A stretch of 64,000 nucleotides of DNA from a virus (taxonomy: Duplodnaviria > Heunggongvirae > Uroviricota > Caudoviricetes). Below, one piece after another: positions 4,011-41,763 of this stretch. The DNA is taken from IMG/VR virus record IMGVR_UViG_3300031873_001030; one strand, 5' to 3'. The notes below the pieces were generated by a model that did no database searches, was not told where the DNA came from, and was given only the letters and a program-made list of their open reading frames with translations. Made by a program: the position numbers and the translations under genes. Position 1 is the first letter of the stretch; the number at the start of each line of letters is the position of its first letter.

Positions 4011-4895
4011 ATGGCACTATGGGATAGGGAAGAAAGAAAGCATACGGAAAATAAAGTATTGCCACTCAAGGATATAGTATTTGATGAGAACATATATCCA
4101 AGACAAAGTTCATGGTGGCAAACTTCGTATAAATATGCCGAAGAGATGAAAGCAGGCGCAAGGTTTCCTCCAATCACAGTAGGTTTTGTGAATGGAAGAT
4201 ACGTGCTTGTGGATGGGAAGCATAGGAATGACGCACTTCTGATGAATAAGGAGACACATACATCAGTAGTAGTTCTCTATGGTTACACTTTGGATGAACT
4301 CTATATTGAAGCTGTAAAACTCAATAGGGCTCACGGTGTAGGACTTACTTCTTTCGACAAGGTCAAGATAATCAAGAGACTTGAAGATATGAAATATTCA
4401 TTGGGAGACATAGCCACGATAGTCCAGATTCCTTTGGGAAGCATAGAGAAATTTGTAGCACAGAGGATTACGTTAAATCCATTAGGACAAGTCACAGTAT
4501 TGAAATCTCCTCTCAAGTTTATGGCAGGAGGAACTATAACGATGACTGACGAAGAGCAAGATACTCTAAGTGTGAGGAGTGAGATAAGTCTGGTAAATCA
4601 GATGACACAGATATTCTCAAATCCGAAGATGCTAAGGGTTGATATAACATTCGTTGATGCTATCGAGAAGCTTTACCAACTGATTCAAGATTTCCTCAAA
4701 GAACAGAAAATTTTGAATGGAGCTGGAAATACAATAGAAGAAGTTCCAAAAGAGAAAATATACAAGAAAAGAGGAAGACCTAAGAAAATCAAGACTGAAA
4801 GTGAGACTTCAGAACCAAAGAAAAAGGGAAGACCTAAAGGTTCTAAGAACAAGCTTAAAGAACTTGATGTCAGTAACGTCAAAGAACAAGCATAA
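4011..4895 (+). CDS. ParB-like nuclease-domain protein with C-terminal AT-hook motifs
   Basis: N-terminal region with VDGKHRNDAL resembles the ParB/Srx catalytic motif; C-terminus carries two KRGRPKK/KKGRPKG AT-hooks. Confidence 0.55.
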   Translation: MALWDREERKHTENKVLPLKDIVFDENIYPRQSSWWQTSYKYAEEMKAGARFPPITVGFVNGRYVLVDGKHRNDALLMNKETHTSVVVLYGYTLDELYIEAVKLNRAHGVGLTSFDKVKIIKRLEDMKYSLGDIATIVQIPLGSIEKFVAQRITLNPLGQVTVLKSPLKFMAGGTITMTDEEQDTLSVRSEISLVNQMTQIFSNPKMLRVDITFVDAIEKLYQLIQDFLKEQKILNGAGNTIEEVPKEKIYKKRGRPKKIKTESETSEPKKKGRPKGSKNKLKELDVSNVKEQA

Positions 4896-5798: not shown

Positions 5799-5816
5799 AA
5801 TGTATCGTTAACCAAA

Positions 5817-10649: not shown

Positions 10650-11186
10650 GTGACATCCAAAAAAACACTCAGGCTATTCGAGAGGGGCAATGTGATTCAT
10701 CAATTCATATCAAAAGTCCTATTGAGTTCGGAAGCAGTAAGGGAAGTAAAAAGTGAACAGTCACTAAGGATACCAAGGATATCTGACAACCCTAAGGAAA
10801 ATTTTCTAATCACAGGCAGATTTGATAACTTTATTGAATTAGTAGAAGGGGAAAATGTGCTGATTGAAGTGAAGACGACAAGAAATCTGGATTATCAGAA
10901 ATCAGCTTCATTGCATCATATCATGCAACTGACACCATATCTTTTATACAAGCAAGGTCTGAAAGGTGCCATATTGTATATAGACATGAACTTCCAGACA
11001 AAAGTATTTGAAGTGATTTATGACCCTAAATTGATGCTGGAAATAATGAAAAGGGCAGAAAATTTGCATATGTATTTAGTGGAAGACAAAATGCCGCTAC
11101 CAGAAGCCAAAGACATACCAGAAAAAAATTGGGAATGCAAATACATATGCAATTATAAAGAGGAATGTGATAAATGTGTTACCTAA
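10650..11186 (+). CDS. PD-(D/E)xK nuclease, Cas4/RecB-like, with C-terminal Cys cluster
   Basis: GRFDNF...IEVK (D...ExK) followed by QxxxY-like LYKQ; C-terminal CKYICNYKEECDKC cluster as in Fe-S Cas4-type nucleases. Confidence 0.4.
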   Translation: MTSKKTLRLFERGNVIHQFISKVLLSSEAVREVKSEQSLRIPRISDNPKENFLITGRFDNFIELVEGENVLIEVKTTRNLDYQKSASLHHIMQLTPYLLYKQGLKGAILYIDMNFQTKVFEVIYDPKLMLEIMKRAENLHMYLVEDKMPLPEAKDIPEKNWECKYICNYKEECDKCVT

Positions 11187-16770: not shown

Positions 16771-16868
16771 TAAATAATTATAAGTTTCCCTTTAAAGAAA
16801 CATGGAAGAGGACTTGTTCCTCTTCCCAACCAAATAATACCTTCTTGCCCTCTAAGTCAGTTACTTCT

Positions 16869-17171
16869 TTATCGAATAAAAACGTCGAAAGCTTTTGCCT
16901 TTCGTCCGCTTTTAGTTGAAACTAGACCCTTGAAGACAATTTTCAGTTCCTGACCAATTTTCACTGAACCCATCTGTCTCTCTAAAATCATAGAACCAAA
17001 GACAGTTCTGACTTTTCCAGTGTTGTCTTTGATGTCGTAGACTCTGGACTTACTTCCATCTGGCCTGAAGTAATTTCCATCTCGAATTTGCATGAGAGTT
17101 CCTTCCAGTGAGTCGTCTTCATTTTCGAATCTGAATATTTCTCCACTTGTAGATTGCCAATTTCCTGGCAT
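16869..17171 (-). CDS. hypothetical protein (100 aa)
   Basis: ORF track. Confidence 0.35.
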   Translation of the reverse strand: MPGNWQSTSGEIFRFENEDDSLEGTLMQIRDGNYFRPDGSKSRVYDIKDNTGKVRTVFGSMILERQMGSVKIGQELKIVFKGLVSTKSGRKAKAFDVFIR

Positions 17172-17440
17172 GAATTATCAACTCCATTATTAATTAATAG
17201 AAACTATCAGTCTCTATCTAGATTATTTCATAACTTGGGAATAGTCTAGAATACAGACAAGCTCTTCAGTCTATATAAACATAATTGAAATCTGTGAGAT
17301 AAACTTCAGAAACTTTATCTCATGACTTATATCTTTCAAGATAAAGTTTCCCTGATAGAAAAGAGTATTTATAATCAAACATCAATATAATGACCGATAG
17401 CTTTTTAAAGCTATGCTTTATGTGATAAAGGAGAATAGGA

Positions 17441-17638
17441 ATGATAATAGACTATGGCAAGTTGAAAGGAAAGAAAGTGAAATTGTTATGCGTATTTGAA
17501 GGTCTGAGTCAGACTATCTATTACGATGGCATAATACTAGATTCATCTGAAGTCAATAAGGTTGTGACCATATCAGATAGATTTAGCAAGACAGTTCACA
17601 TTGATATGGATAGTATAAAACAAGTGGTAGAGTTATGA
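17441..17638 (+). CDS. hypothetical small protein (65 aa)
   Basis: ORF with AAGGAGAA upstream. Confidence 0.3.
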   Translation: MIIDYGKLKGKKVKLLCVFEGLSQTIYYDGIILDSSEVNKVVTISDRFSKTVHIDMDSIKQVVEL

Positions 17639-17742: not shown

Positions 17743-18933
17743 ATGACGTTGAAGAATCTTGTAACGCCATTGGAACTTAAGACTCTCTGGGATTCTGAAT
17801 ATTACAAATCAATATTGACAGCTACAGCTAGCAGCTGCCAATTTGGAAGGATAAGAGAACACCAACGTAATAATACATTCAAAGAAATCAGAGCCAATCT
17901 GAATGCTCTGATAGTTGGAGAATATGGAATTGGGAAATCCACAATGTTGGACATTAAGAATGTCCCAATAGTCAGGGCTAATACAGTTTCAGTTGCTGGA
18001 CTAGCTGGAACTACGACAAGAAGTGGGGAACACGTTATTGGAGCTGCATATAAAGCTAATAATAAATTACTAATTATAGATGACGTTGGTAGTGGTGAAA
18101 ATTCTTATATAGATAATTCTGTAAAACGATGCATGAATCTGCTATTGGAACCTCCGCATACTTTTTCACGAATGTTAGGATTTAAGATGAACATTCCTGT
18201 GAAAGAGAAGAAGGGTGGAGCTTGGGTGAAAGGAAGTGAGAATCAGTTTACATTGCGTTCTAAGTTCAGTTGCATCGTAGCTACAACATCAGTTGTAATT
18301 CGAAATACTGATGACAAAGCTTGGATGTCAAGATTCGTACCAGTAAAACTACATGGTAGTGTGGATTACATGTTTGAATTTTTATCTGGTTCTAATCCAT
18401 TTACAATTACTGGTTTGAATCGGAAAGTCAAGTTATTTGAATTTCCAGATTATCTGGAATTCTTGGAATTCTATGAAGAACATTTTCGTGGAAGTCTGTG
18501 GGAGAAAAGCATAATAGAAAAGGAAGATGAAGTCGGTTCTATAGCGAGAAATACTGGTGACTTGGTAAGATTGGCTGCTTTCAATTGCGCTGTCGATGAT
18601 AGAATAAATATAGAATTTGAAGATGCCAAGAAAGTTTTTGATAGGTTCTACAATCAGATATGGTTCAATATCCAAGTTGGACCACTGACTCATGAACAAT
18701 ATAGAGTTCTATTACTTCTCAATAAGAAGTTGACTGAAGATGAGATAGCAGAAACTATACAAAGGTCACAGCCTTACGTATCTAAGATGATAGAGAAATT
18801 TGAAAGTAAGGGAATACTTGTAGACAGAAAAGTTGCGAAAGAAGTTGAAAACTTTAAACAAACTTCATGGGAAAAACTCGAACCACAGCAGACTTTATCA
18901 GAATCTGTAAAGTTAGATGGTAGTCATGAGTGA
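17743..18933 (+). CDS. mini-MCM-like AAA+ helicase core with C-terminal winged helix (no N-terminal OB/zinc domain)
   Basis: Walker A LIVGEYGIGKST; MCM-like GLAGTTTRSGEH...LLIIDDVGSGEN block; arginine-finger-like SRFVPVKL; C-terminal wH LTEDEIAETIQRSQPYVSKMIEKFESKGIL. Confidence 0.5.
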   Translation: MTLKNLVTPLELKTLWDSEYYKSILTATASSCQFGRIREHQRNNTFKEIRANLNALIVGEYGIGKSTMLDIKNVPIVRANTVSVAGLAGTTTRSGEHVIGAAYKANNKLLIIDDVGSGENSYIDNSVKRCMNLLLEPPHTFSRMLGFKMNIPVKEKKGGAWVKGSENQFTLRSKFSCIVATTSVVIRNTDDKAWMSRFVPVKLHGSVDYMFEFLSGSNPFTITGLNRKVKLFEFPDYLEFLEFYEEHFRGSLWEKSIIEKEDEVGSIARNTGDLVRLAAFNCAVDDRINIEFEDAKKVFDRFYNQIWFNIQVGPLTHEQYRVLLLLNKKLTEDEIAETIQRSQPYVSKMIEKFESKGILVDRKVAKEVENFKQTSWEKLEPQQTLSESVKLDGSHE

Positions 18934-23427: not shown

Positions 23428-24054
23428 ATGATGGACGAATTCAAGAACACAATGAAAGGATTCTTTCACAGTTTTGATTATCTTCCTGAAGTGTTCAAGA
23501 CTCTTCATATCATAAGGCTAGTTCCAGGAAAGTTCGAGGTCAAGATGAAGCAGCCAATGATAATCCTTGGAAACCTGAGATTCCTGAATGAGACAAAACA
23601 TAGATGGCAGGAATACAATTTCGAAACTTTCTTCCTCAAAAAGAGAATTCCAGATTGCCAATGCAAAGAAGTCATGGATGCTGCAAAGGAATACATCCTA
23701 TTCAAAAGACTGCATGAGAACCAGAAAATCAGTGCAAGAGAAATAATGAATTGCAAAAATCTCGAATTGAGGAGAGCATTACTTGAAAGGTTTGGTTATG
23801 AGAAAATGTTGAATGAGCTTGGTGGACATATGATAGATGCAGAAGGAAATTACATTCTTTTCAAAATGGATTTCAGGGAAGTAAATGAATCTGTAAAATT
23901 AAATGAGGATGTAAAACTTTTGAAGATGAAGGATTCCTCAACAGAAAGATGGTATGTATTAAGGGTTCCTCCAAATGTAAAAAATTGCACTGAAGCTGTG
24001 TCATGGTCTTTCAATACGCCAGTTGAAGAATACAAATTAGAAGTGGAAACATAG
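23428..24054 (+). CDS. hypothetical protein (208 aa)
   Basis: ORF track; ends at the tRNA-like fragment. Confidence 0.4.
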   Translation: MMDEFKNTMKGFFHSFDYLPEVFKTLHIIRLVPGKFEVKMKQPMIILGNLRFLNETKHRWQEYNFETFFLKKRIPDCQCKEVMDAAKEYILFKRLHENQKISAREIMNCKNLELRRALLERFGYEKMLNELGGHMIDAEGNYILFKMDFREVNESVKLNEDVKLLKMKDSSTERWYVLRVPPNVKNCTEAVSWSFNTPVEEYKLEVET

Positions 24055-24415: not shown

Positions 24416-24479
24416 TTAACATATGTTAATCAGTGATGCAGCATAATGCAAAATTCCTTCAGTCTTTAACATATGTTAA
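24416..24479. repeat. pair of palindrome cores (24416-24429, 24466-24479) with a 36-nt spacer
   Basis: Read in sequence; intergenic between the tRNA fragment and tRNA-Pro. Confidence 0.9.
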
Positions 24480-24601
24480 TGTCAAATTAGAAATGCAATA
24501 CGATTGTTAACAAGAAAGTTAACAAAGTCTCACCTGCCAGAATTGCACCAGCATCTACGAGGCTACAGCTCGTTGTTCTACTGTTGAACTAAGGCGAGTT
24601 G

Positions 24602-24674
24602 TGGGGATGCTGAGATTTGAACTCAGATTATTCGCTTCCAGAGCGAAGGTTCTAACAAGTTATACTACATCCCC
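24602..24674 (-). tRNA. tRNA-Pro (anticodon UGG); D-arm non-canonical by eye
   Basis: Minus-strand read GGGGATG...TTCGC-TCTGGAA-GCGAA...CTGAG-TTCAAAT-CTCAG-CATCCCC-A; acceptor, anticodon and T arms perfect. Confidence 0.6.
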
Positions 24675-24677
24675 AAG

Positions 24678-24751
24678 GGAGAATAGAGGGATTTGAACCC
24701 TCTCTAACAAGTTCACAGCTTGACGTGCTCGCCTACTACACCATATTCTCC
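24678..24751 (-). tRNA. tRNA-His (anticodon GUG) with genome-encoded G-1
   Basis: G-1:C73 pair; acceptor GAGAATA/TATTCTC; D-stem GTGT/GCAC; anticodon loop CTGTGAA; T-arm GAGGG-TTCAAAT-CCCTC; 3 nt from tRNA-Pro. Confidence 0.7.
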
Positions 24752-25212
24752 ATTTTATTATGTTCTTCTCTATGGCAATTTGCACATAGAAGTTTGCATT
24801 TCTGCAATTCTTTTCGTATCACCTCGAGACTATTATGCCATATTCTGGATATTTCATATTTCTTTTCTCCGTTCATATGATGAAATTCAAGTGCTGCGAA
24901 ACATTTGTTATATCCACATTTTTGACATTTACCTCCAAATTCCATTTTCATAATTTTTGTTTTTTCTTGGTTTTTACGCTTTTGTGCTATATACCACAAA
25001 TGTCTCTGAGGGAGAGATGATTTTTGTTTATGTTGTTTTATATATTTTCTCATATATTCTCTATGATATTTTTTCCTTTTTTCTCTGTTTTCAGGGTTTG
25101 ACAACCAAATTTTCCATCGTTCTTTTTCTTGCTCACGGTGTGATTTTCTATATAATCTATTTATTTCACACAATCGTTCTTTGTTTTTTTCATAATATTT
25201 TTTACTGGTCAT
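24736..25212 (-). CDS. HNH endonuclease (158 aa); final 5 codons overlap the 5' end of tRNA-His
   Basis: HNH core CQKCGY...LEFHHMNG...N...CANCHREEHN; basic K/R-rich N-terminus; stop TAG at 24736-24738 lies inside tRNA-His. Confidence 0.6.
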   Translation of the reverse strand: MTSKKYYEKNKERLCEINRLYRKSHREQEKERWKIWLSNPENREKRKKYHREYMRKYIKQHKQKSSLPQRHLWYIAQKRKNQEKTKIMKMEFGGKCQKCGYNKCFAALEFHHMNGEKKYEISRIWHNSLEVIRKELQKCKLLCANCHREEHNKMENMV

Positions 25213-25255
25213 ATAATGTAATTGTTTAATACCATTTATATTTGTTGTTGAACTA

Positions 25256-25330
25256 CGCTCTGGGCAAGACTCGAACTTGCAATTTCTCCGTTAACAGCGG
25301 AGCGCTTGTACCTGTTTAAGCTGCCAGAGC
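25256..25330 (-). tRNA. tRNA-Asn (anticodon GUU)
   Basis: GCTCTGG-CA-GCTT-AAACAGGTAC-AAGC-G-CTCCG-CTGTTAA-CGGAG-AAAT-GCAAG-TTCGAGT-CTTGC-CCAGAGC-G; all stems canonical. Confidence 0.75.
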
Positions 25331-25333
25331 AAG

Positions 25334-25437
25334 TACTCCCCGAATGATTCGAACATTCGTCTCTTGGTTTCTCCAAGTTTCAGATTCTTGTTGAAATTAT
25401 CAAAGCCAAGCATCTTTGTCCACTGGACGAGGGGAGT
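25334..25437 (-). tRNA. tRNA-Gln (anticodon UUG) with A1:U72 pair and a roughly 31-nt intron at position 37/38 (intron about 25368-25398)
   Basis: Acceptor ACTCCCC/GGGGAGT; T-arm GAATG-TTCGAAT-CATTC; anticodon stem CTTGG/CCAAG with loop CTTTGA|intron|A; D-arm fit only approximate. Confidence 0.45.
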
Positions 25438-25469
25438 ATATTGATTGTAGTTCTTTTTAAAAACTATGG

Positions 25470-25545
25470 ACACAAGCGGGAATCGAACTCGCATCTCTTT
25501 CTTGCAAGGGAAGTATCCTACCATTAAACGATTGGCCCGTCATTG
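25470..25545 (-). other. tRNA-like sequence with T-loop TTCGATT that I could not fold into a canonical cloverleaf
   Basis: GCGAG-TTCGATT-CCCGC followed by TTGTGTCCA; no matching 5' acceptor strand found nearby. Confidence 0.2.
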
Positions 25546-25713: not shown

Positions 25714-26358
25714 CTAACGGGATTTATATTTTTCAGTCAATATCTTCTTGATTCTAGTTGAAAGTACGTCTCCTATTCCCTTTGCTTTCTGCAAGTCTTC
25801 CTCACTGGCTAAAAGTACTTTTTCAACAGAACCGAGATTTTCCAACAGCCTTTTGGATATTGTCGAATTTACTCCAGGAATGGAGGAGACTATCTGCTCT
25901 TGTATCTTTGACATTTCTGTCGGCACCTTTTCAAATTTGTATGATACAGTTCTTTTGCTTTCAACTTGCTCTTTTTTCGCAAGATGATATATCATTCTGG
26001 CAGTGTCCATTTTGTCCTTAGTATTTACTATGGAAATGTTGAATCTGATGATTAGACTTGCCATAGCGGCTTTCACAATGTTCACATCTATGCGTTCATT
26101 TGGAAATCCTTCTATGATTATGATGACAATCTTAAAATTGTCCTTCATCCTAGTTGTCTGTTCAAATAACCTTCCATCAAATATTGACGCTACAAAATCT
26201 TGATATGTCTTCCTTTCAATCACTGTCCTATCCGAAACTATGAAGTCTCCAACTTCCAAGAAAGATTCATTCAAGTTGACGTTGGCAAAATTTCTCAGAA
26301 AGTATATCAGCTCTTTTTCCCTGGAATCTGCTGATATCGTGATTTTAAATTCTTCCAT
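25714..26358 (-). CDS. xpf: short XPF/ERCC4-family nuclease with C-terminal (HhH)2
   Basis: GDFIVSDRTVIERKTYQDFVASIFDGRLFEQ (ERCC4 ERK motif); C-terminal IPGVNSTISKRLLENLGSVEKVLLASEEDLQKAKGIG helix-hairpin-helix pair. Confidence 0.6.
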   Translation of the reverse strand: MEEFKITISADSREKELIYFLRNFANVNLNESFLEVGDFIVSDRTVIERKTYQDFVASIFDGRLFEQTTRMKDNFKIVIIIIEGFPNERIDVNIVKAAMASLIIRFNISIVNTKDKMDTARMIYHLAKKEQVESKRTVSYKFEKVPTEMSKIQEQIVSSIPGVNSTISKRLLENLGSVEKVLLASEEDLQKAKGIGDVLSTRIKKILTEKYKSR

Positions 26359-26598: not shown

Positions 26599-26859
26599 AT
26601 GGATACCATCACGCTATATATACTTAGAACAAAGCCAGAGACACATTTCTATGTTGGAATTACTAAAGACCTTGATAAGAGATTAGAACAGCATAAAAAT
26701 AATCCAAATGTCTCTTGGGTAAAAAGAAGAAACTTTAAATTTGATTTAGTATGGAGAGAGAAATTTCCTGATTTGAAATCTGCAAGGAAAAAGGAGAAAT
26801 ATTATAAGAAAATGGAAAGGAAAAGACTCTTAAAAATCATTGGGATAAAAGGAGTGTGA
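26599..26859 (+). CDS. small GIY-YIG nuclease-domain protein (paralog 1; track ORF starts at 26515, likely true start at 26599)
   Basis: FYVGITKDLDKRLEQH...KKEKYYKKMERKRLLKII; GGAGGG 6 nt upstream of 26599; paralog at 35982. Confidence 0.55.
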   Translation: MDTITLYILRTKPETHFYVGITKDLDKRLEQHKNNPNVSWVKRRNFKFDLVWREKFPDLKSARKKEKYYKKMERKRLLKIIGIKGV

Positions 26860-26863: not shown

Positions 26864-28279
26864 ATGGAACTAAACAAAGGTTCAAAAAGAACGAGAAAAG
26901 TAATTAATCCTGAAGGTTCTATAGTATTGAAACGTTCAGATGAAATCCAGCTATATCTTGAAGCAAGCAATCTCAACATAAAGGAAGATAAGTTCTATCA
27001 GAGTGCTAAGGACAAGCTGGCAAGCTTGATAAAGATGGCTAGGGAAGCCAATCAGGCATACGTCTTTGGTCTTGGAAGATTCTTAACTGACAACGGATTG
27101 AAACTTTCTCCAGTTGTGTTATATTCAGTACTGTCTGACAGACATGTTCCAATTAATGCAAGTGCAATAAAGACATTCAACACTCCTCAAAGAATAGCAG
27201 AAGCTGTATCATTGCAGAATCTTAAGATAGTTAAATTGAACAACCAATTCAAGAAAAAGATTCTTAAGAAAGCCTTGGAAAACATGTCAGAATTTACTTT
27301 GAGAAAGAACAAGATGCTTAAGAGAAAAGTCAAGGAAAAGGACTTGATTAAACTTTTGAGGCCTAAGCCAGCAAATGCAGAAATGGCAAAGCTATACAAG
27401 GCAATTATAGAAGATGACAAGCTTTCAAAGATGAAGGAGACTGAAACATTTGTAAGAGTGAAGTCTTCAAAAGAAATGAACACTAAAGATAAGCTTGATT
27501 ATTTGACAAATAACGTAGACAGGCTTCCAATAAATGAATTGATAAGAAATCTTAAGTTCATCTCTGAAAATGCAGACTTCAGGAAAGACTTTGAATTGAA
27601 GAGCAAAGTGATAGCAAAATTGCAGAATATAAAGGACATGAGGTTCTTGAACGTTTTTGATTTGATAACCACTGTGGTTTATGTTCCAGACTTCAGCAAG
27701 GCACTGTCAGAAGTTGTAAAGAAATTTTGCGATGATGTTAAAGCTAAGTTTGACTACAATGAAAGTGCAACTGTATTATTTGACTTGTCTGGAAGTATGG
27801 AAGGGGAGGGAATAGAAAAAGGTTTTAAGTACTTGGTACTGTTTGCAAATATATTTGGCAATTTGAAATTGAGATGCTTTAGTGAAGAATTGCTTAAGGA
27901 CACTTACCAGAATGTCATCACTGACATAAATAAAGGAAATTACAAGATTGCATTGAACAAGCTTGACACTATCGGTGGAACTGCATTGCTTGATTCTTTG
28001 GACAAACTTATAGATGAGGGAAAGACTGAATCTAATATAATCATTATAAGCGATGAAGTGAGCTGGCTTGAAGGAGATGACTTGAGTGTGAGAATAAAGG
28101 AAATTTCAGACAAGCTTAAGGGAAAGAAAGTGATACTGGTAAATCCTGTAGTTTATAAGGGAACAGTATTCAGGGACAATATAATTGCATTTGCAAGCCT
28201 TACCTCAAATGTCATTTACAATCTGATGATAGGAACAAAGCCAGAAGCATTTGTAAAGATGATAAAAGAATATAAGTGA
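26864..28279 (+). CDS. rsr: Ro60/TROVE + vWA protein (Rsr-like)
   Basis: C-terminal vWA with MIDAS DLSGSM...GGTALLDSL; N-terminal segments IKEDKFYQSAKDKLASLIKMA and LPINELIRNLKFISENA parallel the Ro60 TROVE segments [21 protein letters not shown] and PLTALLRNLGKMTANS (recalled from memory). Confidence 0.55.
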   Translation: MELNKGSKRTRKVINPEGSIVLKRSDEIQLYLEASNLNIKEDKFYQSAKDKLASLIKMAREANQAYVFGLGRFLTDNGLKLSPVVLYSVLSDRHVPINASAIKTFNTPQRIAEAVSLQNLKIVKLNNQFKKKILKKALENMSEFTLRKNKMLKRKVKEKDLIKLLRPKPANAEMAKLYKAIIEDDKLSKMKETETFVRVKSSKEMNTKDKLDYLTNNVDRLPINELIRNLKFISENADFRKDFELKSKVIAKLQNIKDMRFLNVFDLITTVVYVPDFSKALSEVVKKFCDDVKAKFDYNESATVLFDLSGSMEGEGIEKGFKYLVLFANIFGNLKLRCFSEELLKDTYQNVITDINKGNYKIALNKLDTIGGTALLDSLDKLIDEGKTESNIIIISDEVSWLEGDDLSVRIKEISDKLKGKKVILVNPVVYKGTVFRDNIIAFASLTSNVIYNLMIGTKPEAFVKMIKEYK

Positions 28280-30241: not shown

Positions 30242-31066
30242 ATGGCTAAACTTACTGCTACTGTAAATGATGTTGTCATGTTCAAGTCTCTTTTTGGTCT
30301 GTTGTGCAGGAATTCTGATATGCTAAAATTTAAAGTCGATAAGGAAGGTATAAGTTCTGTTACTATGCCTGCGGATATGGCGACTTTTCTTAGTGTTTTG
30401 ATAAAGCCAAATTTCTTTGAGGAATGGAATTTTGAAGGTTCGTTCATGTATTGCTATTTTGACCCGCAGCAATTTTCTCGGATGATGAAGAATCTTACCT
30501 CGAAGAAGATTGAGATGGTGCTTGATGAGAATTATATAAATTTCAGTCTTGAGAACGAGGGAAGAAAGAAACATATCTCATTGGTACAGATTACTGGAGA
30601 ATTGTCAGAGCTTCCTGGGAATTTGGGAACTGATTTTGATTTTTCATGGATTATTGAGATAGAGACTTTGAAAAGCATTGTGGATGATATTGTCAATGTC
30701 GATGACAATGCGGATTTGTCTTCCATCTATTTCACATGGGAAAAAGACAGTCTGAAAGTTGAAGCAAGGGAGAGTAAGGTCATGAAGTTTGAGACTATTA
30801 TTGGCCCACCTTTTGTGAAATGTGGTAGCGGGCATTCTTCTTTTAGGACCAATTATTTTTCAAAGATAGTCTGGGCTGGTCTTGGTAAGATTAGATTTTC
30901 AATCTTGAATACTGACGGTCCAGCTTTTATGGAGACTTGTGATGATAGCAAGTTCTCATTGAAATTTATTGTGGCGCCTTTTGTGGCAAGTAATCCTGAT
31001 ATGGATATCACGTCCGAGAATGACGGTAAAAGTTCACAAGATAGTGAGGTGGTAAGTGATGGGTAA
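30242..31066 (+). CDS. PCNA-like sliding-clamp candidate (274 aa)
   Basis: N-terminal pattern VNDVVMFKSLFGLLCRNSDMLKFKVDKEGISSVTMPADMATFLSVL...FEGSF...NLTSKKIEMVLDEN parallels PCNA domain-1 topology; weak and by eye only. Confidence 0.3.
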   Translation: MAKLTATVNDVVMFKSLFGLLCRNSDMLKFKVDKEGISSVTMPADMATFLSVLIKPNFFEEWNFEGSFMYCYFDPQQFSRMMKNLTSKKIEMVLDENYINFSLENEGRKKHISLVQITGELSELPGNLGTDFDFSWIIEIETLKSIVDDIVNVDDNADLSSIYFTWEKDSLKVEARESKVMKFETIIGPPFVKCGSGHSSFRTNYFSKIVWAGLGKIRFSILNTDGPAFMETCDDSKFSLKFIVAPFVASNPDMDITSENDGKSSQDSEVVSDG

Positions 31067-31520
31067 ATGTACAGCGTGTGGAAAAAACATAGGAATGTTT
31101 GGTAGCAGCAAGTCTTGCGATGCTGAAGATTGTAAAGTTGAAGGTCTGTGCAAGGAATGTTCGTCTGCCAAATTGTCAGACTGCGAAAAATGCGGATATA
31201 CATTCTGCATTGCTCACATAAAAAATCATGAATGCGAAGAGGAAAGTGATAAGGAAGAGAGTGAGGATTCTGAAGATGGAGAAGAGGAGGAAGAGCCTGT
31301 TGAATTGTCTGAAGATGATGTCCATATCTCAAAGGATAAGAAATTTAAGATGCTTCTTTTGGAAGATTACTATAATGAAGATATTGTAAACTTCCTTGAA
31401 GAGACGGAAAAGGAAGGGTATGTGCTTATCGGCACCGATATGGGCAATAGCATGTACTTATTCAAGAACTTTTCTTTAGAAAAGAAAAGTTCACAAAAGA
31501 AAGAAGGAGAAAGTGCATGA
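31056..31520 (+). CDS. Cys-rich zinc-binding protein with acidic linker (154 aa)
   Basis: CTACGK...CKEC...CEKCGY...C...H pattern; E/D-rich tract. Confidence 0.4.
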   Translation: MMGKCTACGKNIGMFGSSKSCDAEDCKVEGLCKECSSAKLSDCEKCGYTFCIAHIKNHECEEESDKEESEDSEDGEEEEEPVELSEDDVHISKDKKFKMLLLEDYYNEDIVNFLEETEKEGYVLIGTDMGNSMYLFKNFSLEKKSSQKKEGESA

Positions 31521-31556
31521 AGAATCAAGAATCAGAAAATTCTTTGTATACTTTCT

Positions 31557-32483
31557 TTGAAGAAAGTATTTGGAGGTTATAAAGAAATGATAATGACAAC
31601 AGGAAGTTGGATATTGGCAGGATTAGGTGCCTTCATATTCATAATGTTTCTTTCTGGAATAAGGATAGTAAGGCCTTTGGAAAGGGGTTTGGTTGAAAGG
31701 TTTGGTAAGTATCATAGGTTTGCCATGCCAGGTTTCAATTGGATAATCCCAGTATTTGACAGCATGTACAGAATCAACATCACCGAGACTATGGTGAATG
31801 CTGAACCTCAGCAGATTATTACTATGGATAAACTGAATGCCACAGTTGATGCGCAGGTTTATTTCAAGGTAAAAGATGATGAGACTTCTGTGAAGGCTTC
31901 TCAATATAACGTCTACAACTACAGGTACCAGATTGTAAATCTTGCGAGGACTACTCTGAGAAACATCATAGGTACGATGTCCCTTACTGATGCAAATAGC
32001 AAGAGGGATGTGATAAACAAGGATTTGATGGATACTCTCAGTGTCGAGACAAAGAATTGGGGTATACAAGTTGTGAGGACTGAATTGAAGGAGATAGACC
32101 CGCCAGAAGATGTACAAGCTACAATGAACAGGGTAGTGAAAGCGGAGAATGAAAAGATGGCTGCCATAGACTTTGCAACAGCTGCAGAGACTCAGGCAGA
32201 TGGTCTTAAGAGAGCGAAGATAAAGGAAGCGGAAGGTCTGAGGCAATTTGAGATATTGCGTGCAGAAGGTAATAAGCAGGCGACTATACTTGAAGCTGAC
32301 GGAAGAGCTCAGGCTATCAAGCTTGTGAATGAGGCTGCAGAAAAGTATTTCATTGGAAATGCCCAGAAATTGAAGACTCTCGAAGTCACTCAGAGTTCAT
32401 TGGAAAGCAATACAAAAATAATAGTTCCGAACGACCAGAAAATCATAAATGTGATAGGAAACTTAATCGGCGAAAAATTATAG
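31557..32483 (+). CDS. SPFH/band-7 (stomatin/prohibitin-like) membrane protein
   Basis: N-terminal TM then VRPLERGLVERFGKYHRFAMPGFNWIIP... SPFH pattern with a coiled-coil-like C-terminus. Confidence 0.6.
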   Translation: MKKVFGGYKEMIMTTGSWILAGLGAFIFIMFLSGIRIVRPLERGLVERFGKYHRFAMPGFNWIIPVFDSMYRINITETMVNAEPQQIITMDKLNATVDAQVYFKVKDDETSVKASQYNVYNYRYQIVNLARTTLRNIIGTMSLTDANSKRDVINKDLMDTLSVETKNWGIQVVRTELKEIDPPEDVQATMNRVVKAENEKMAAIDFATAAETQADGLKRAKIKEAEGLRQFEILRAEGNKQATILEADGRAQAIKLVNEAAEKYFIGNAQKLKTLEVTQSSLESNTKIIVPNDQKIINVIGNLIGEKL

Positions 32484-32564
32484 AGAAACTTTTTCAAAAA
32501 AGTTTCATCAAAAAATCTGTGGTAGGGTTTGGTATATTGATTTTGTTAGTGAGGAGTATATAAA

Positions 32565-32807
32565 ATGACGAAAACAATAGTTGAGGAAAGTGTGATGCCG
32601 CATAAAAATGATTTCAGTTTTGACGAAGGAAAATCTTTTCTTGTAGAGGAATTTAAGATTAATGATAATCTTAGAAGAAGATATGTGAAGCTTATTGACC
32701 AGCATGGAAAATTCGAATTGTCTTTGTCACAGTTCAAATGGATTGTTGAAAAAGTCAATTGCATAGAATCTGAAGTAAATGTATATGAAAAACAATTGAG
32801 ATTGTGA
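32565..32807 (+). CDS. hypothetical protein (80 aa)
   Basis: ORF track. Confidence 0.3.
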   Translation: MTKTIVEESVMPHKNDFSFDEGKSFLVEEFKINDNLRRRYVKLIDQHGKFELSLSQFKWIVEKVNCIESEVNVYEKQLRL

Positions 32808-33193
32808 ATATGAAAAATATAAAGATAACGACAAAAATTTGTGACAAGCATTTTGCAATTTTGAGATATGAAAGTGATGATATGATTAGTGCGAAGAAGG
32901 TTTTCAATAAGCTGAATTGTAAGTTTAATTTCAAAGAGACTTGGTTCGTATCTGTTGATGGGATGATTTTTTCCATATCTTTCTGCCTTTATACTTGGTC
33001 GAAATACAAGTCGATGATTTATGCAAAAGGTATTTCAAAGAATTTCCGTGAAGGATGTTTGAAGGATAGGTGCGGTTGTCTTGTGTTGAAACCTGGCTGC
33101 AAGTTTAAAGTATTGTACAAATTCAATCAGGAGCGTTCGAATCAGGAACTTAAGAATAGCATTCAAGATATATTAACTAGGAAAGAATTATAA
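32804..33193 (+). CDS. hypothetical protein (129 aa)
   Basis: ORF track; 4-nt overlap coupling. Confidence 0.35.
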   Translation: MNMKNIKITTKICDKHFAILRYESDDMISAKKVFNKLNCKFNFKETWFVSVDGMIFSISFCLYTWSKYKSMIYAKGISKNFREGCLKDRCGCLVLKPGCKFKVLYKFNQERSNQELKNSIQDILTRKEL

Positions 33194-33195
33194 TT

Positions 33196-33501
33196 ATGGA
33201 GAACTTTCTTCAAAGAAAGTTCACAAAGAAATTGGAGGTAACTGGTATGAGTAAAGAAGCTGCAAGTAAGGAAGATGGTAGAGGAAGAAACGCAGTTTCT
33301 TCCCTAATGCATAAGCTGAAGATGGAAAAAAGATATAAAGGTAAGAAGATTGTTTCGATGAAGGAACGGTTCCTTAAGACTGCGCATCAGAGAGGGAAGA
33401 TGAAAAAAGGAATGACTAAATCCCAGATGAAGAAAGAAATCAAGCAAAGATTAAAAGATAAAAAACCAATATATCAATCAAGGCTTACCGATTATGTTTA
33501 A
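33196..33501 (+). CDS. basic K/R-rich protein (101 aa)
   Basis: ORF track. Confidence 0.35.
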   Translation: MENFLQRKFTKKLEVTGMSKEAASKEDGRGRNAVSSLMHKLKMEKRYKGKKIVSMKERFLKTAHQRGKMKKGMTKSQMKKEIKQRLKDKKPIYQSRLTDYV

Positions 33502-33829
33502 GAAGAAAAAAGTTTCGGCGAGACAGGAAGTAGAAGATATACGGAATAAAGTACATCAATCTGTACATTCTAAAGATAGGATGTCTTTAAAGGAAGAGCT
33601 TGATGAACTTCATGCACAGATACATGAGTCTGGAAAAGTTCGGATGCCTACTAGGGGGGAGATATATGGACATCCAACAAAGCCGATTGGAATCTGCTTG
33701 AAATGCAAAAAGATGTTTCCGACTGAGCAGCTTCAACGTTATTATATAAATCCAGAAGAGTGTTATTGGTTGTGTCCAAAGTGCGGTTTCAAGAAAAGAA
33801 TGAGAGAAAAGTTTTCATCGAGATTATAA
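33494..33829 (+). CDS. zinc-ribbon protein (111 aa)
   Basis: CLKCKK...CPKCGF. Confidence 0.35.
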   Translation: MFKKKKVSARQEVEDIRNKVHQSVHSKDRMSLKEELDELHAQIHESGKVRMPTRGEIYGHPTKPIGICLKCKKMFPTEQLQRYYINPEECYWLCPKCGFKKRMREKFSSRL

Positions 33830-33878
33830 TTAAGTGATAAGAGGCAATAGAAAGTGAAAGAAGAAATCATTAATTTCT

Positions 33879-34622
33879 TTGTATACTTTCTTTGAAGAAA
33901 GTATTATGATAGAAGATGAAATTATAAGCGGGAGAATTTCTATTGGTCGGGTTGGTATTTATCTTAATGCTAAGACTAAAGGTGGTTACAATATAGGATT
34001 TAATTTTCTTAATAGTCCAGAGCTGAGGACTGCGGGCGTGTGCAATATCACGAAGGACCAGATGTTTATAATGTTTGCTGATTTTGACAATATAGGTTAT
34101 GAAAAACTTAAAGACCAGTTGGATTTCATAAATAGGAATCATGATGTGAGCAATTTTCTTGTTCTTACGACTGGAAAGAATCGATATCATGTGATAAGTT
34201 TTGAAAAATTCTGGAAACAGGAATTAGTTGACATATTGAAGAATACTTTCTGCGATTATACGTATAAAAGTTTTGTTCCGTTGAAAGTTGACAAGGGCTG
34301 GATACTTAGGGTGACTGAAAAGAGGGATTTGGATAATAATGTTGTGAAGGACAGGCCTGAATATGTAGAATCGTTTTCTTATTCTGAAGTCCCTAAGAGG
34401 AGATTGTCGCGTGCTCACGTAGAATTTTTTTCGAGAATGTATCCTGAATTCAGGAAATTTGCAGAGGAGAAGCTTGATAAAAATTATTGGGATGAGTTTA
34501 CTGTGATTCAGCTGCTGAAATATGGGACAAGCCATGAGAATCTTATTGCAAAATTTGACTTGAAGGATTTGATAGATTCCAAGAAGCTTGAAATAGTGTG
34601 GAAGGACAATATATTTGATTAG
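33879..34622 (+). CDS. primase-polymerase (AEP/PrimPol-like) candidate
   Basis: FIMFADFDN (motif I, DxD), LTTGKNRYHVISF (motif II, sGxxxH), later KVDKGW (motif III-like); 247 aa. Confidence 0.4.
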   Translation: MYTFFEESIMIEDEIISGRISIGRVGIYLNAKTKGGYNIGFNFLNSPELRTAGVCNITKDQMFIMFADFDNIGYEKLKDQLDFINRNHDVSNFLVLTTGKNRYHVISFEKFWKQELVDILKNTFCDYTYKSFVPLKVDKGWILRVTEKRDLDNNVVKDRPEYVESFSYSEVPKRRLSRAHVEFFSRMYPEFRKFAEEKLDKNYWDEFTVIQLLKYGTSHENLIAKFDLKDLIDSKKLEIVWKDNIFD

Positions 34623-34695
34623 TGACAATGAACCTCAGAGTAGGAACCAACTGGAAAGTGGAATCAGCAAGTCATAACTGCGAGGTTCATTGTCA
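34623..34695 (+). repeat. 73-nt stem-loop element, copy D (stem TGACAATGAACCTC / GAGGTTCATTGTCA)
   Basis: Starts 1 nt after the PrimPol-like stop; stem carries a compensatory AT/AT pair relative to other copies. Confidence 0.6.
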
Positions 34696-35414: not shown

Positions 35415-35500
35415 GAGTTAGGGTCCGATGGGGTAAGTTAGGATATTGTGAGGTCGGATGTGGTATGTTTGGTGAGGTAAGGTATGGTCCGATATGGTTT
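35415..35500 (+). repeat. short block of the (GGTNN)n satellite
   Basis: GGGTCCGATGGGGTAAGTTAGGATATTGTGAGGTCGGATGTGGTATGTTTGGTGAGGTAAGGTATGGTCCGATATGG. Confidence 0.7.
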
Positions 35501-35502: not shown

Positions 35503-35982
35503 GTGATTGATATGAAAATTGAAGTAAGGATGCACCATCTTAGCGAACTTAAGAGAAAGTTGCTTGATTCTGATATGAATCATACCAAGTATATTTTACT
35601 GGATGAGATGAGAGCGACGATAGATAAGTTGAAGGGTGACAGGAATCTCATGTTCAAGATTGTTGCTATGATGTCGAAAGTGACTACTGCTTCTCGGTTG
35701 ACTACTGAAGGGATGATAATGGCTTTGGAAAATATGGTTTTGTTTGATATAATGCAATATGATATTTTACAGGATGGTGATGTGACTGTTTTGAATCTGA
35801 ATGTTGATGATAATTATTTTGAGATTTTTAACAAGATTCCTCTGATTGGCAGGTTTATCTCAACTCTTTCTGGAGGAAGAAAAAGATATTTGGAAGAGGT
35901 GAGAAAAACTATAGAGGAGGATTATACAAAAGATTATACACTGAAAATAATCATGGATGATACAAAGGAGGTTCATGAATAA
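35503..35982 (+). CDS. hypothetical protein (159 aa)
   Basis: ORF track. Confidence 0.4.
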   Translation: MIDMKIEVRMHHLSELKRKLLDSDMNHTKYILLDEMRATIDKLKGDRNLMFKIVAMMSKVTTASRLTTEGMIMALENMVLFDIMQYDILQDGDVTVLNLNVDDNYFEIFNKIPLIGRFISTLSGGRKRYLEEVRKTIEEDYTKDYTLKIIMDDTKEVHE

Positions 35983-36239
35983 TGAATCGCGTCACATTGT
36001 ACATATTAAAATGCGATAATGGAATGTTTTATACTGGTATTACTAGAGATTTAAAAAAGAGACTTTTTCAGCATAGAAATTGTAAAAGTTCTTCATTTGT
36101 AAAAAGAAGAAATTTAAATTTTGATGTTGTTTATACTGAAACTTTTGGGAATTGGACACTTGCTAGAAAAAAGGAAAAATATTATAAGAAGATGAATAGG
36201 GAAAAATTAAAAAAAATTATAAAGAGTGTGACGCGATGA
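35982..36239 (+). CDS. small GIY-YIG nuclease-domain protein (paralog 2)
   Basis: FYTGITRDLKKRLFQH...KKEKYYKKMNREKLKKII; TAATG start/stop coupling; AGGAGG upstream. Confidence 0.55.
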   Translation: MNRVTLYILKCDNGMFYTGITRDLKKRLFQHRNCKSSSFVKRRNLNFDVVYTETFGNWTLARKKEKYYKKMNREKLKKIIKSVTR

Positions 36240-41671: not shown

Positions 41672-41698
41672 ACTTTGATTACCAATTATTATGACAGC

Positions 41699-41745
41699 GT
41701 ATGGTTAGGTCTGGTTGGATGTGATAAGATAAGGTTTGGTAAGAT
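41699..41745 (+). repeat. short block of the (GGTNN)n satellite
   Basis: TATGGTTAGGTCTGGTTGGATGTGATAAGATAAGGTTTGGTAAG. Confidence 0.6.
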
Positions 41746-41763
41746 AATAAAGAGGTAATGTAA

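What the first reader, a model, noticed from the sequence alone, without database searches (positions are those of the whole stretch)
30242..34695. Dispersed replication/repair gene set (PCNA-like, PrimPol-like, MCM-like, XPF) suggesting an integrated element with its own replisome parts
Within 17 kb the window encodes an MCM-core helicase (17743), a short XPF (25714; crenarchaeal XPF needs PCNA), a PCNA-like protein (30242) and an AEP/PrimPol-like protein (33879) ending 1 nt before stem-loop copy D. These sit among Zn-ribbon micro-proteins and an SPFH protein rather than in canonical host operons. Such a collection is typical of archaeal integrated elements or large viruses rather than chromosomal core.
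Basis: inference. Interest (0 to 1): 0.5.

Follow-up and report, generated by a model that had tools for sequence, protein, structure and literature searches.

The report
Replication genes of an orphan archaeal element
The window belongs to a roughly 92 kb, gene-dense mobile element of archaeal type (plasmid or virus) with almost no database relatives. It carries its own very divergent sliding clamp, a truncated MCM-type helicase, a flap nuclease and a probable new kind of primase, which is interesting but not unprecedented for archaeal mobile elements.

Summary
Three of the four gene calls hold and the fourth is probable.
- **PCNA (30242-31066):** a real, full-length but extremely divergent sliding clamp. 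Pfam misses it. NCBIfam clamp models score E 7e-11, and a 3-sequence profile hits 87 PDB chains, all PCNA.
- **Nuclease (25714-26358, minus strand):** an intact ERCC4+HhH2 nuclease, closer to the euryarchaeal Hef nuclease domain than to crenarchaeal XPF. It has no PIP box.
- **MCM-like (17743-18933):** an MCM AAA+ core plus winged helix, without the MCM N-terminal domain. hhalign against six viral MCMs gives 97.6%, against 55% for Orc1/Cdc6.

The "mobile element" reading is supported. About 79 kb of the 92 kb contig contains no housekeeping genes. "Integrated" is not supported: I found no integrase or host flanks, but did find a ParB-like gene and clustered palindromes. No DNA polymerase or clamp loader was found, so the element presumably uses the host's. 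This is a new member of a known kind, of moderate interest.

The parts
16869..17171 (-). 100-aa protein transcribed divergently from the MCM-like gene. It could be a small OB-fold or ssDNA-binding protein, but this is unconfirmed.
   Evidence: A 43%-identical homologue sits beside the MCM-like homologue in L010. The only family signal is a faint OB-fold hit at E 0.09. PDB and PHROGs give nothing.
17172..17440 (.). AT-rich divergent intergenic region at the strand switch. It is a candidate replication origin or promoter region (inferred).
   Evidence: The local cumulative GC-skew minimum lies at about 17.2 kb. AGATAAA(C/G)TTTC-type repeats are seen by eye. Skew follows gene strand here, so this is weak evidence.
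17441..17638 (+). 65-aa protein conserved immediately upstream of the MCM-like gene.
   Evidence: A homologue occupies the same position in L010. No family hit.
17743..18933 (+). Mini-MCM: an MCM-family AAA+ core with lid and C-terminal winged helix, lacking the MCM N-terminal OB/Zn domain.
   Evidence: hhalign of the 4-sequence alignment A6 against six archaeal-virus MCMs gives Prob 97.6%, E 3.4e-12. Query 51-365 aligns to the MCM AAA+ core through the C-terminal winged helix. Walker A (K65), the GLTA-like SVAGLAG motif, Walker B (D113/D114), the SRF arginine finger (R197) and sensor 2 (R269) are all in register. The reversed-template control gives 0.3%. Orc1/Cdc6 gives 55% over lid plus winged helix only. 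Pfam MCM matches 4 of 4 orthologues, best E 2e-5. MarR-type wHTH lies at residues 315-359.
24527..25538 (-). Cluster of five tRNA genes (Tyr, Pro, His, Asn and one found by Rfam only).
   Evidence: ARAGORN and Rfam.
25714..26358 (-). Stand-alone XPF/Hef-type structure-specific nuclease (ERCC4 domain plus HhH2).
   Evidence: Pfam ERCC4 E 3e-26, HHH_5 E 3e-7. NCBIfam Hef nuclease C-terminal domain 3.6e-58, archaeal Xpf 4.3e-29. The GDx(n)ERKx3D signature is intact in the sequence (VGDF...IERKTYQDF). No PIP box.
26599..26859 (+). GIY-YIG nuclease-domain protein. A second one lies at 35982-36239.
   Evidence: Precomputed Pfam PF01541.
30242..31066 (+). Highly divergent full-length PCNA sliding clamp with a C-terminal acidic tail of about 25 aa.
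   Evidence: Only two relatives are known: P0002 at 61% identity and L002:956-1711 at 24%.
31059..31520 (+). Cys-rich (Zn-ribbon-like) acidic protein overlapping the end of the PCNA gene.
   Evidence: ORF and sequence. phrog_18518, unknown function, E 3e-4.
31557..32483 (+). SPFH/Band 7 membrane protein. Its position next to PCNA is conserved.
   Evidence: Band_7 E 5.6e-37. The same PCNA-then-Band_7 order occurs in L002.
32804..33829 (+). Three small genes (129, 101 and 111 aa; the last has a C-terminal CxxC...CxxC motif) that always precede the AEP-like gene.
   Evidence: Homologues lie in the same order in L002, L006, L007 and L008. No family assignment.
33906..34622 (+). Probable archaeo-eukaryotic-primase-fold protein of an uncharacterised family (238 aa).
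34621..34695 (+). Stem-loop copy D, starting at the AEP-like stop codon. It may be a terminator or a structured RNA/DNA element.
   Evidence: Four copies in the window against 0 expected. The outer stem is 13 bp with two compensatory pairs; RNAalifold gives -32.4 kcal/mol. It is not conserved next to AEP homologues elsewhere.
31540..31562 (+). 23-nt exact repeat TTCTTTGTATACTTTCTTTGAAG. The second copy lies at 33875-33897, 8 nt before the AEP-like ATG. It may be a shared promoter or operator.
   Evidence: Two exact copies and one inverted 2-mismatch copy, against 0 expected.
35503..35982 (+). 159-aa protein conserved downstream of the AEP-like gene in related elements. Function unknown.
   Evidence: Homologues at 38-39% identity in L002, L007 and L008. 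No family hit.
4011..4895 (+). ParB-like protein flanked by clustered TTAACATATGTTAA palindromes. Probable partition module.
   Evidence: phrog_1033 ParB-like, E 6e-6. 15 palindrome copies against 0.03 expected. L002 carries an HTH_ParB gene between its SPFH and AEP-like genes.
10650..11186 (+). PD-(D/E)XK nuclease-superfamily protein.
   Evidence: PF12705 E 5.8e-7.

Best explanation
The window is most of a roughly 92 kb autonomous archaeal-type mobile element, either a plasmid-like replicon or a non-tailed or unrecognised virus. It is not a stretch of host chromosome.

**Core replication module (partly shown, partly inferred).** The core is a truncated MCM-family helicase (AAA+ core plus winged helix, 17743-18933) and a small stand-alone protein with an archaeo-eukaryotic primase fold (33906-34622). 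In a related contig these two genes lie 2 kb apart. In this element they are separated by about 15 kb of accessory genes.

**Likely working order (inferred).**
1. The winged-helix MCM is loaded at or near the divergent AT-rich region beside its gene and unwinds DNA.
2. The AEP-fold protein lays down primers.
3. The element's own PCNA ring tethers a host polymerase.
4. A Hef/XPF-type nuclease, an ATP-dependent DNA ligase (just upstream of the window) and a PD-(D/E)XK nuclease process flaps and stalled forks and seal nicks.
5. A ParB-like protein acting on clustered palindromes segregates the replicon.

No DNA polymerase or clamp loader is encoded in the 79 kb I could see, so the element depends on the host for these.

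**Status of each part.**
- Shown: the identities of PCNA, the nuclease, the MCM core, SPFH and the ligase; the orphan status of the lineage; the conserved synteny.
- Inferred: primase activity, origin position, dependence on host polymerase, extrachromosomal state and the host.
For: - **PCNA:**
- **Nuclease:**
- **MCM core:** hhalign 97.6% against 55% for Orc1/Cdc6 and 0.3% for the reversed control. Pfam MCM matches all four orthologues.
- **AEP fold, motifs:** motifs I-IV in canonical order, conserved in a 99-sequence alignment: D59 97/99, D61 99/99, H95 83/99, D117 97/99, R135 99/99. This matches the motif scheme, including the motif IV Arg, in PMC5862659.
- **AEP fold, context:** distant family members lie in a [P-loop ATPase]-[AEP-like]-[142 aa]-[family B polymerase] operon. 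In L010 the MCM-like and AEP-like homologues are 2 kb apart.
- **Mobile-element nature:** no housekeeping Pfam hits over about 79 kb. Proteins are singletons. Two GIY-YIG genes, one HNH-like gene and five tRNAs are present. ParB and palindromes. DNA ligase upstream.
- **Possible completeness:** two independent assemblies give nearly the same length, 91,950 and 92,011 bp.
- **No polymerase:** tblastn with a PolB from the related lineage finds nothing in the window or its flanks.
Against: - The AEP-like protein has no significant sequence-profile match to any AEP family tested.
- Foldseek finds nothing significant.
- The MCM assignment rests on a shallow 4-sequence profile and a home-made 6-sequence template set. 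The AF2 model of this protein failed at pLDDT 30.
- About 13 kb of the contig, including both ends, could not be read. An integrase, polymerase, capsid gene or host flank could lie there.
- No capsid or terminase was found, and no relatives exist in IMG/VR or INPHARED. 'Virus' versus 'plasmid' is therefore open.
- The archaeal host is inferred only from archaeal-type genes and from MAG labels of distant family members.
Confidence: 0.6

Rival explanations
1. The genes belong to an element integrated in an archaeal chromosome (a provirus or integrated plasmid), and the window contains the island plus host DNA.
For: Archaeal integrated elements often carry MCM, primase and PCNA genes (background knowledge; see also PMC6563490, listed). 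tRNA genes are present. About 13 kb of the contig was not inspected.
Against: No integrase or recombinase Pfam hit appears anywhere in about 79 kb. The tRNAs form an internal 5-gene cluster rather than a single boundary tRNA. No block of housekeeping genes lies on either side. ParB and clustered palindromes suggest autonomous maintenance. Gene orientation and composition are uniform across the window.
Confidence: 0.15
2. The contig is a piece of the chromosome of a small, fast-evolving archaeon (for example a DPANN lineage). The PCNA, MCM-like, nuclease and AEP-like proteins would then be its own highly diverged core replication proteins.
For: Distant members of the AEP-like family are labelled Nanopusillaceae or Aenigmatarchaeota in NCBI MAGs. 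Giant surface-type ORFs and glycosylation genes are common in such genomes. GC is about 35%.
Against: A cellular chromosome should show ribosomal, translation or RNA polymerase genes within 79 kb, and none is seen. Cellular PCNA and MCM are readily found by Pfam, but these are not. The MCM lacks the N-terminal domain required in all cellular MCMs. The proteins have 0-2 relatives in 5.8 billion sequences. Homing-endonuclease-type genes and many tiny ORFs are typical of mobile elements.
Confidence: 0.07
3. The 238-aa protein is not a primase. It could be another metal-dependent nucleotidyltransferase or nuclease on an RRM-like fold, or a replication accessory protein such as a terminal protein that uses the invariant Tyr206. 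The rest of the picture would be unchanged.
Confidence: 0.3

Closest known systems
MCM helicases of archaeal viruses and plasmids (BJ1, HSTV-1, HRTV-29, Altiarchaeum virus, MFTV1, TPV1) and MCM-like helicases of bacterial mobile elements
   Same: The AAA+ core has MCM-type Walker A, a GLTA-like segment, Walker B, the SRF(D) arginine finger, sensor 2 and a C-terminal winged helix. It is encoded on a mobile element beside a primase-type gene.
   Different: At 396 aa it is only about half the length of those MCMs (554-776 aa in my set). The entire N-terminal OB-fold/Zn domain is absent. It is too divergent for Pfam's threshold. No hit in INPHARED or IMG/VR.
Archaeo-eukaryotic primase superfamily, in particular small stand-alone or mobile-element families (HP0184/2atz subfamily, CAPP Prim-Pol, PolpTN2 and the PrimPol-PV1 supergroup of PMC5862659)
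   Different: No detectable sequence-profile similarity to the Pfam AEP models (except one E 0.019 hit), the pRN1/phage PrimPol set or the PolpTN2 set. There is no fused helicase, PriCT or PriL-like domain. The close subfamily has an extra N-terminal beta-sheet of about 45 aa.
Archaeal PCNA, and virus-encoded PCNA of archaeal viruses
   Same: Full-length two-domain clamp alignable end to end with Sulfolobus and yeast PCNA.
   Different: Scores 42 bits against NCBIfam cut-offs of 207-293 bits. It has an acidic C-terminal extension. Only two relatives are known. No clamp loader and no PIP-box partner could be identified in the element.
Hef nuclease domain and short crenarchaeal XPF
   Same: ERCC4 catalytic domain with an intact ERK motif plus tandem helix-hairpin-helix. 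It is the same size as short XPF (214 aa).
   Different: It is closer to the Hef C-terminal domain (197 bits) than to crenarchaeal Xpf (102 bits). It lacks the Hef helicase domain and lacks the C-terminal PCNA-interaction motif of crenarchaeal XPF.

Membership tests
PCNA (PF00705/PF02747; NCBIfam DNA polymerase sliding clamp) | Significant profile similarity over both clamp domains | tested here: met
   Profile A2 against PDB finds 87 chains, all PCNA, with residues 10-247 aligned to 7-242 of 1ud9_A at E 2.7e-9. NCBIfam NF002220 E 6.8e-11 and NF002222 aligned over 6-248. The L002 orthologue hits PF00705 at 9e-7.
PCNA (PF00705/PF02747; NCBIfam DNA polymerase sliding clamp) | Passes the curated family thresholds | tested here: not met
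   No Pfam hit for the window protein. NCBIfam scores are 25-42 bits against cut-offs of 207-293 bits. It is a homologue, not an equivalog.
PCNA (PF00705/PF02747; NCBIfam DNA polymerase sliding clamp) | Ring-forming trimer that binds PIP-box partners | not testable with these tools
   No canonical PIP box was found in the nuclease, MCM-like, AEP-like or other candidate partners. Oligomeric state was not modelled.
XPF/Hef (ERCC4 nuclease) | ERCC4 domain with the GDx(n)ERKx3D catalytic signature plus C-terminal HhH2 | tested here: met
   PF02732 E 3.2e-26 (above cut-off), HHH_5 E 3e-7. The motif VGDF...ERKTYQDF is visible in the translation.
Crenarchaeal short XPF (PCNA-dependent) | C-terminal PCNA-interaction motif, and closest to the Arch_Xpf model | tested here: not met
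   The Hef nuclease domain scores 197 bits against 102 bits for Arch_Xpf (cut-off 300). No PIP-like motif.
MCM helicase (PF00493) | MCM-type AAA+ core: Walker A/B, GLTA segment, SRFD arginine finger and sensor 2 in register | tested here: met
   hhalign of A6 against six viral MCMs gives Prob 97.6%, E 3.4e-12, 287 columns. Controls: Orc1/Cdc6 55% over 96 columns, reversed MCM 0.3%.
MCM helicase (PF00493) | Passes the Pfam gathering threshold | tested here: not met
   17 bits against a cut-off of 23.3, covering residues 42-92 only. Best E among four orthologues is 2.1e-5.
MCM helicase (PF00493) | N-terminal OB-fold/Zn-finger domain (PF17207, PF14551) | tested here: not met
   Only about 50 residues precede Walker A. 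The hhalign match starts at template column 380 of 752. No Pfam MCM_N or MCM_OB hit.
MCM helicase (PF00493) | Hexameric 3'-5' helicase activity | not testable with these tools
   The AF2 model failed at pLDDT 30. No biochemistry is available.
Orc1/Cdc6 initiator | Initiator-clade AAA+ core followed by lid and winged helix | tested here: inconclusive
   The overall architecture and length (396 aa) match. However, hhalign against six Orc1/Cdc6 proteins aligns only the lid and winged helix (55%). The spacing from Walker A to Walker B is 48 aa, which leaves no room for an initiator-specific insert (sequence).
AEP superfamily (archaeo-eukaryotic primase fold) | Catalytic motifs I (hhhDxD), II (sxH) and III (hD), plus motif IV Arg/Lys, in order | tested here: met
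   In the 99-sequence alignment: D59 97/99, D61 99/99, H95 83/99, D117 97/99, R135 99/99, K139 96/99. In the model, DxD lies at the end of strand 54-61 and H95 in hairpin 83-102. Motif definitions come from PMC5862659.
AEP superfamily (archaeo-eukaryotic primase fold) | Structural similarity to solved AEP catalytic domains | tested here: inconclusive
Prim-Pol family (PF09250) and DNA_primase_S (PF01896) | Significant sequence-profile match | tested here: not met
   No Pfam hit in 99 family members. One of eight close members gives PF01896 at E 0.019. hhalign against the pRN1/phage PrimPol set and the PolpTN2 set gives Prob below 1%. The PDB profile search is empty.
Integrated mobile element / provirus | Integrase plus att junction with flanking host genes | tested here: not met
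   No integrase Pfam hit and no host block in about 79 kb of the 92 kb contig. The outermost 13 kb was not readable.
Tailed archaeal virus (Caudoviricetes) | Terminase large subunit, portal and HK97 capsid genes | tested here: not met
   No such Pfam or PHROG hits. There is one faint 'minor head protein' hit at E 0.0011. No relatives in IMG/VR or INPHARED.

The most novel reading that the evidence does not exclude
The 238-aa protein may found a large, previously undescribed family of minimal stand-alone archaeo-eukaryotic primases. The family has at least 587 clusters at 50% identity and no Pfam, PHROG, NCBIfam or PDB sequence relative. It would work with a domain-stripped MCM as a two-protein helicase-primase module in a hitherto unsampled lineage of large (32-92 kb) extrachromosomal elements or viruses of uncultured, possibly DPANN, archaea. 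In some relatives a family B polymerase would be added.
Probability: 0.4. Interest if true: 0.55.

Novelty: new member of a known kind. Interest (0 to 1): 0.4.

Why it matters
Mobile elements of archaea that carry MCM, primase and PCNA genes are well known, so the general picture is not surprising. Three things are worth having.

1. **An orphan lineage.** This roughly 92 kb replicon has replication proteins with essentially no relatives in 5.8 billion sequences and none in viral databases. It samples an unexplored part of the archaeal mobilome.
2. **A large unannotated protein family.** It carries a complete set of primase-type catalytic motifs and is linked in different elements to an MCM-like ATPase and to a family B polymerase. 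If it is a primase, it is among the smallest stand-alone AEPs. It would also fill an annotation gap in many DPANN-labelled metagenomic bins.
3. **A minimal MCM.** A natural MCM reduced to its AAA+ core plus winged helix is a useful minimal system for asking what the N-terminal domain is needed for.

Tried and rejected
- **AF2 of the MCM-like protein:** with a 3-sequence alignment the model had pLDDT 30 and was unusable.
- **Sequence profiles of the MCM-like protein against PDB:** these gave only wHTH regulators and a marginal MCM8 hit. The question was resolved only by a home-made profile-profile test.
- **Sequence tests of the AEP-like family:** Pfam on 99 members, NCBIfam, PHROGs, PDB profiles and hhalign against pRN1, PolpTN2 and phage PrimPols were all negative.
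- **Structure searches of the AEP-like model:** Foldseek against PDB and BFVD was non-significant. The AFDB library was unavailable.
- **Searches for relatives:** IMG/VR with four queries and INPHARED with two found nothing. One GTDB hit lies in a 'Clostridiaceae' MAG contig and is probably mis-binned.
- **Small SSB hypothesis:** I considered that the 100-aa protein next to the MCM-like gene is a small SSB. The only signal is a faint OB hit, and PDB and PHROGs were empty, so this is left as an idea.
- **PIP-box links to PCNA:** none found.
- **P-loop ATPase next to distant AEP-like genes:** I tested whether this 258-aa protein is homologous to the mini-MCM. Only a Walker-A-region match appeared (Prob 17-59%), so this is unresolved.
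- **Contig ends:** I tried to read them for terminal repeats or circularity.
- **Sample accessions:** none was found in the literature library.

Full report
**What is in the sequence.**
The window has about 35% GC. From 17.4 kb onward nearly all genes are on the plus strand, and a short minus-strand block lies at 13.0-17.2 kb. Their neighbours are:
- a 5-tRNA cluster at 24527-25538;
- two GIY-YIG genes and an HNH-like gene;
- an SPFH/Band 7 protein at 31557-32483;
- several Cys-rich micro-proteins;
- further away, glycosyl- and methyltransferases and giant ORFs of 1340 and 3752 aa.

**PCNA-like protein (30242-31066).**
- Pfam finds nothing.
- The ten best phmmer hits in the PDB are all archaeal PCNAs, best E 0.003.
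- Five NCBIfam sliding-clamp models match directly, best E 6.8e-11. The scores are 25-42 bits against cut-offs of 207-293 bits.
- The protein has only two relatives: one at 61% identity among 5.8 billion proteins, and a 24%-identical protein in contig L002.
- A profile of the three sequences hits 87 PDB chains, all PCNA, aligned from end to end. The L002 orthologue reaches PF00705 at 9e-7.

This is a genuine two-domain sliding clamp on a very long branch.

**Nuclease (25714-26358, minus strand).**
- It has ERCC4 (E 3e-26) plus a tandem helix-hairpin-helix.
- The GDx(n)ERKx3D signature is intact in the translation.
- It matches the C-terminal nuclease domain of euryarchaeal Hef (197 bits) better than crenarchaeal Xpf (102 bits).
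- It has no PIP-box-like motif, and neither do the other candidate clamp partners.

The co-occurrence itself is real.

**MCM-like protein (17743-18933).**
Single-sequence and shallow-profile searches give only a sub-threshold Pfam MCM hit over the Walker A region, plus clear MarR-type winged-helix hits at residues 315-365. AlphaFold failed at pLDDT 30. Because the architecture (AAA+ core, lid, winged helix, 396 aa) is also that of Orc1/Cdc6, I built two comparison sets from annotated public records:
- six MCMs of archaeal viruses;
- six haloarchaeal Orc1/Cdc6 proteins.

Profile-profile results for the four orthologues (alignment A6):

| Template set | Probability | E-value | Aligned columns |
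|---|---|---|---|
| MCM | 97.6% | 3.4e-12 | 287 (Walker A through C-terminal winged helix) |
| Orc1/Cdc6 | 55% | 1.2e-4 | 96 (lid and winged helix only) |
| Reversed MCM (control) | 0.3% | 0.23 | 62 |

In the MCM alignment, Walker A, the MCM-typical GLTA-like segment, Walker B, the SRF(D) arginine finger and sensor 2 are all in register. The match begins at template column 380 of 752, so the MCM N-terminal OB/Zn domain is absent. The protein is an MCM AAA+ core with a winged helix, a "mini-MCM".

**AEP/PrimPol-like protein.**
Public assemblies call this gene from the ATG at 33906, giving 238 aa.

*Sequence evidence is negative.* The tests were:
- Pfam, PHROGs and NCBIfam on the protein;
- PDB profiles;
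- Pfam on 99 family members;
- hhalign against pRN1 ORF904, PolpTN2, and alignments of the PrimPol and PolpTN2 families.

The single exception is one of eight close homologues touching PF01896 (PriS) at E 0.019.

*Other evidence is positive.* It has three parts.

1. **A large family with conserved catalytic-type residues.**
   - An exhaustive HMMER search finds 587 cluster representatives (243 at E<=1e-10). Most are stand-alone proteins of 170-240 aa.
   - In a 99-sequence alignment the conserved positions are G44, D59xD61, H95, K101, D117, R135, K139, P151, S168, H171, D196 and Y206.
   - That gives a DxD at the end of a hydrophobic strand, a His in the following beta-hairpin, a third Asp and an invariant Arg.
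   - These are AEP motifs I-IV as laid out by Kazlauskas et al. (PMC5862659).

   These have the longest alignments in the list. Foldseek is not significant.
3. **Gene neighbourhood.**
   - Distant family members are labelled Nanopusillaceae or Aenigmatarchaeota in NCBI MAGs. There the gene sits in an operon [P-loop ATPase]-[AEP-like]-[142 aa]-[family B DNA polymerase].
   - In contig L010 the AEP-like and mini-MCM homologues are 2 kb apart.

I read this as a probable AEP-fold primase of an undescribed family, with about 60-65% confidence. It is not a member of the Prim-Pol family PF09250.

**What kind of DNA this is.**
- The window maps to an ENA contig of 91,950 bp. A JGI assembly gives 92,011 bp.
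- I could read contig positions 11.7-90.6 kb.
- In that span no housekeeping gene, integrase, capsid or terminase is detected.
- Just upstream of the window lie an ATP-dependent DNA ligase (PF01068; phrog_114, E 5e-21) and a MoxR-vWA pair.
- The window also has a ParB-like gene. It is flanked by most of the 15 copies of the palindrome TTAACATATGTTAA (0.03 expected). A PD-(D/E)XK nuclease is also present.
- A second contig of 32 kb (L002) repeats the order PCNA - SPFH - ... - ParB-HTH - ... - three small genes - AEP-like - 159-aa protein, all on one strand, at 24-58% identity.
- Shorter contigs from other samples repeat the AEP-proximal part.
- No relative is present in IMG/VR or INPHARED.
- tblastn with the PolB of the distant lineage finds nothing in the window or its flanks, and no clamp loader was seen.

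**Interpretation.**
The evidence favours an autonomous replicon (plasmid-like, or a virus whose structural genes are unrecognisable) over an integrated one.
- The conserved core is the mini-MCM plus the AEP-fold protein.
- PCNA, the Hef/XPF-type nuclease, the ligase and other nucleases are accessory parts.
- The polymerase and clamp loader are presumably borrowed from the host.

Still inferred rather than shown are the origin position (possibly the AT-rich divergent region at 17172-17440 at the skew minimum), primase activity, the extrachromosomal state and the host.

**Novelty.**
Archaeal plasmids and viruses with MCM, AEP and PCNA genes are well documented, so this is a new member of a known kind. 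The specific points of interest are:
- the orphan status of the lineage;
- the domain-stripped MCM;
- the large unannotated family with AEP-type motifs.

**Limits.**
- The MCM result uses shallow, self-assembled profiles.
- The AEP result lacks any significant sequence match and relies on a medium-confidence model.
- 13 kb of the contig, including both ends, was not inspected.

Noticed in passing
window 700-2504, 5432-5836, 12361-12411, 24416-24479: The 14-bp perfect palindrome TTAACATATGTTAA occurs 14 times exactly and once with one mismatch (0.03 expected). Copies come mostly in closely spaced pairs, and eleven lie around the ParB-like gene (4011-4895). They are candidate parS or operator sites.
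   Followed up: partly
window 4942-5016, 6149-6224, 6947-7021, 34621-34695: A family of four stem-loops of about 75 nt. Each has a 13-bp outer stem kept by two compensatory base-pair changes (RNAalifold -32.4 kcal/mol). Three copies lie in a 3 kb non-coding tract and the fourth starts at the stop codon of the AEP-like gene. The family is not found next to AEP-like homologues in other contigs.
   Followed up: partly
window 4900-7950; also 35419-35493, 41696-41759 and, reverse-complemented, 16507-16772: A non-coding tract of about 3 kb is made of degenerate GGT-containing repeats with a 5-nt period (for example TTCGGTTAGGTGAGGTCAG). It has high GC and negative AT skew. Short tracts of the same kind lie just upstream of two genes that are conserved in related elements. 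No Rfam family matches.
   Followed up: no
window 31540-31562 and 33875-33897 (inverted 2-mismatch copy at 33208-33230): The 23-nt sequence TTCTTTGTATACTTTCTTTGAAG is repeated exactly, directly upstream of the SPFH gene and of the AEP-like gene. This suggests a shared promoter or operator.
   Followed up: partly
window 30242-32483 and L002:956-2692: The gene order PCNA then SPFH/Band 7 is conserved between two elements whose PCNAs are only 24% identical. This is an unexplained association of a sliding clamp with a membrane-scaffold protein.
   Followed up: partly
window 26864-28279: A 471-aa protein with no family hit. Its C-terminal half carries a DxSxS (LFDLSGSM) MIDAS-like motif typical of vWA domains. 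It sits beside a GIY-YIG gene, the nuclease and the tRNA cluster.
   Followed up: no
window 44139-48161, 49389-60647; L012:11697-20450: A run of giant ORFs (1340, 3752, 1736 and more than 1460 aa) with internal repeats. The 3752-aa protein has DUF285 (BspA-type) repeats. L002 also ends in a 1360-aa ORF.
   Followed up: no
L020 (NCBI GCA_038893655.1, JAWAQX010000003.1), L021-L023: Distant AEP-like family members lie in a [258-aa P-loop ATPase]-[AEP-like]-[142 aa]-[family B polymerase] operon. The contig also carries QueC, a radical-SAM QueE-like gene and GTP cyclohydrolase I. This looks like a virus or plasmid with 7-deazaguanine genes binned as Nanopusillaceae.
   Followed up: partly
L016:1933-7247 (0.6-5.9 kb upstream of window position 1): A MoxR-type AAA ATPase (bpMoxR), a 540-aa vWA protein and a 274-aa ATP-dependent DNA ligase lie on the same contig just outside the window.
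   Followed up: partly
window 21729-22961 and 23428-24054: An ARPP-1 domain protein fused to a winged helix (PF20208, E 3e-25) and a DUF6745 protein (E 3e-16) lie between the mini-MCM and the tRNA cluster. Both domains are poorly characterised.
   Followed up: no
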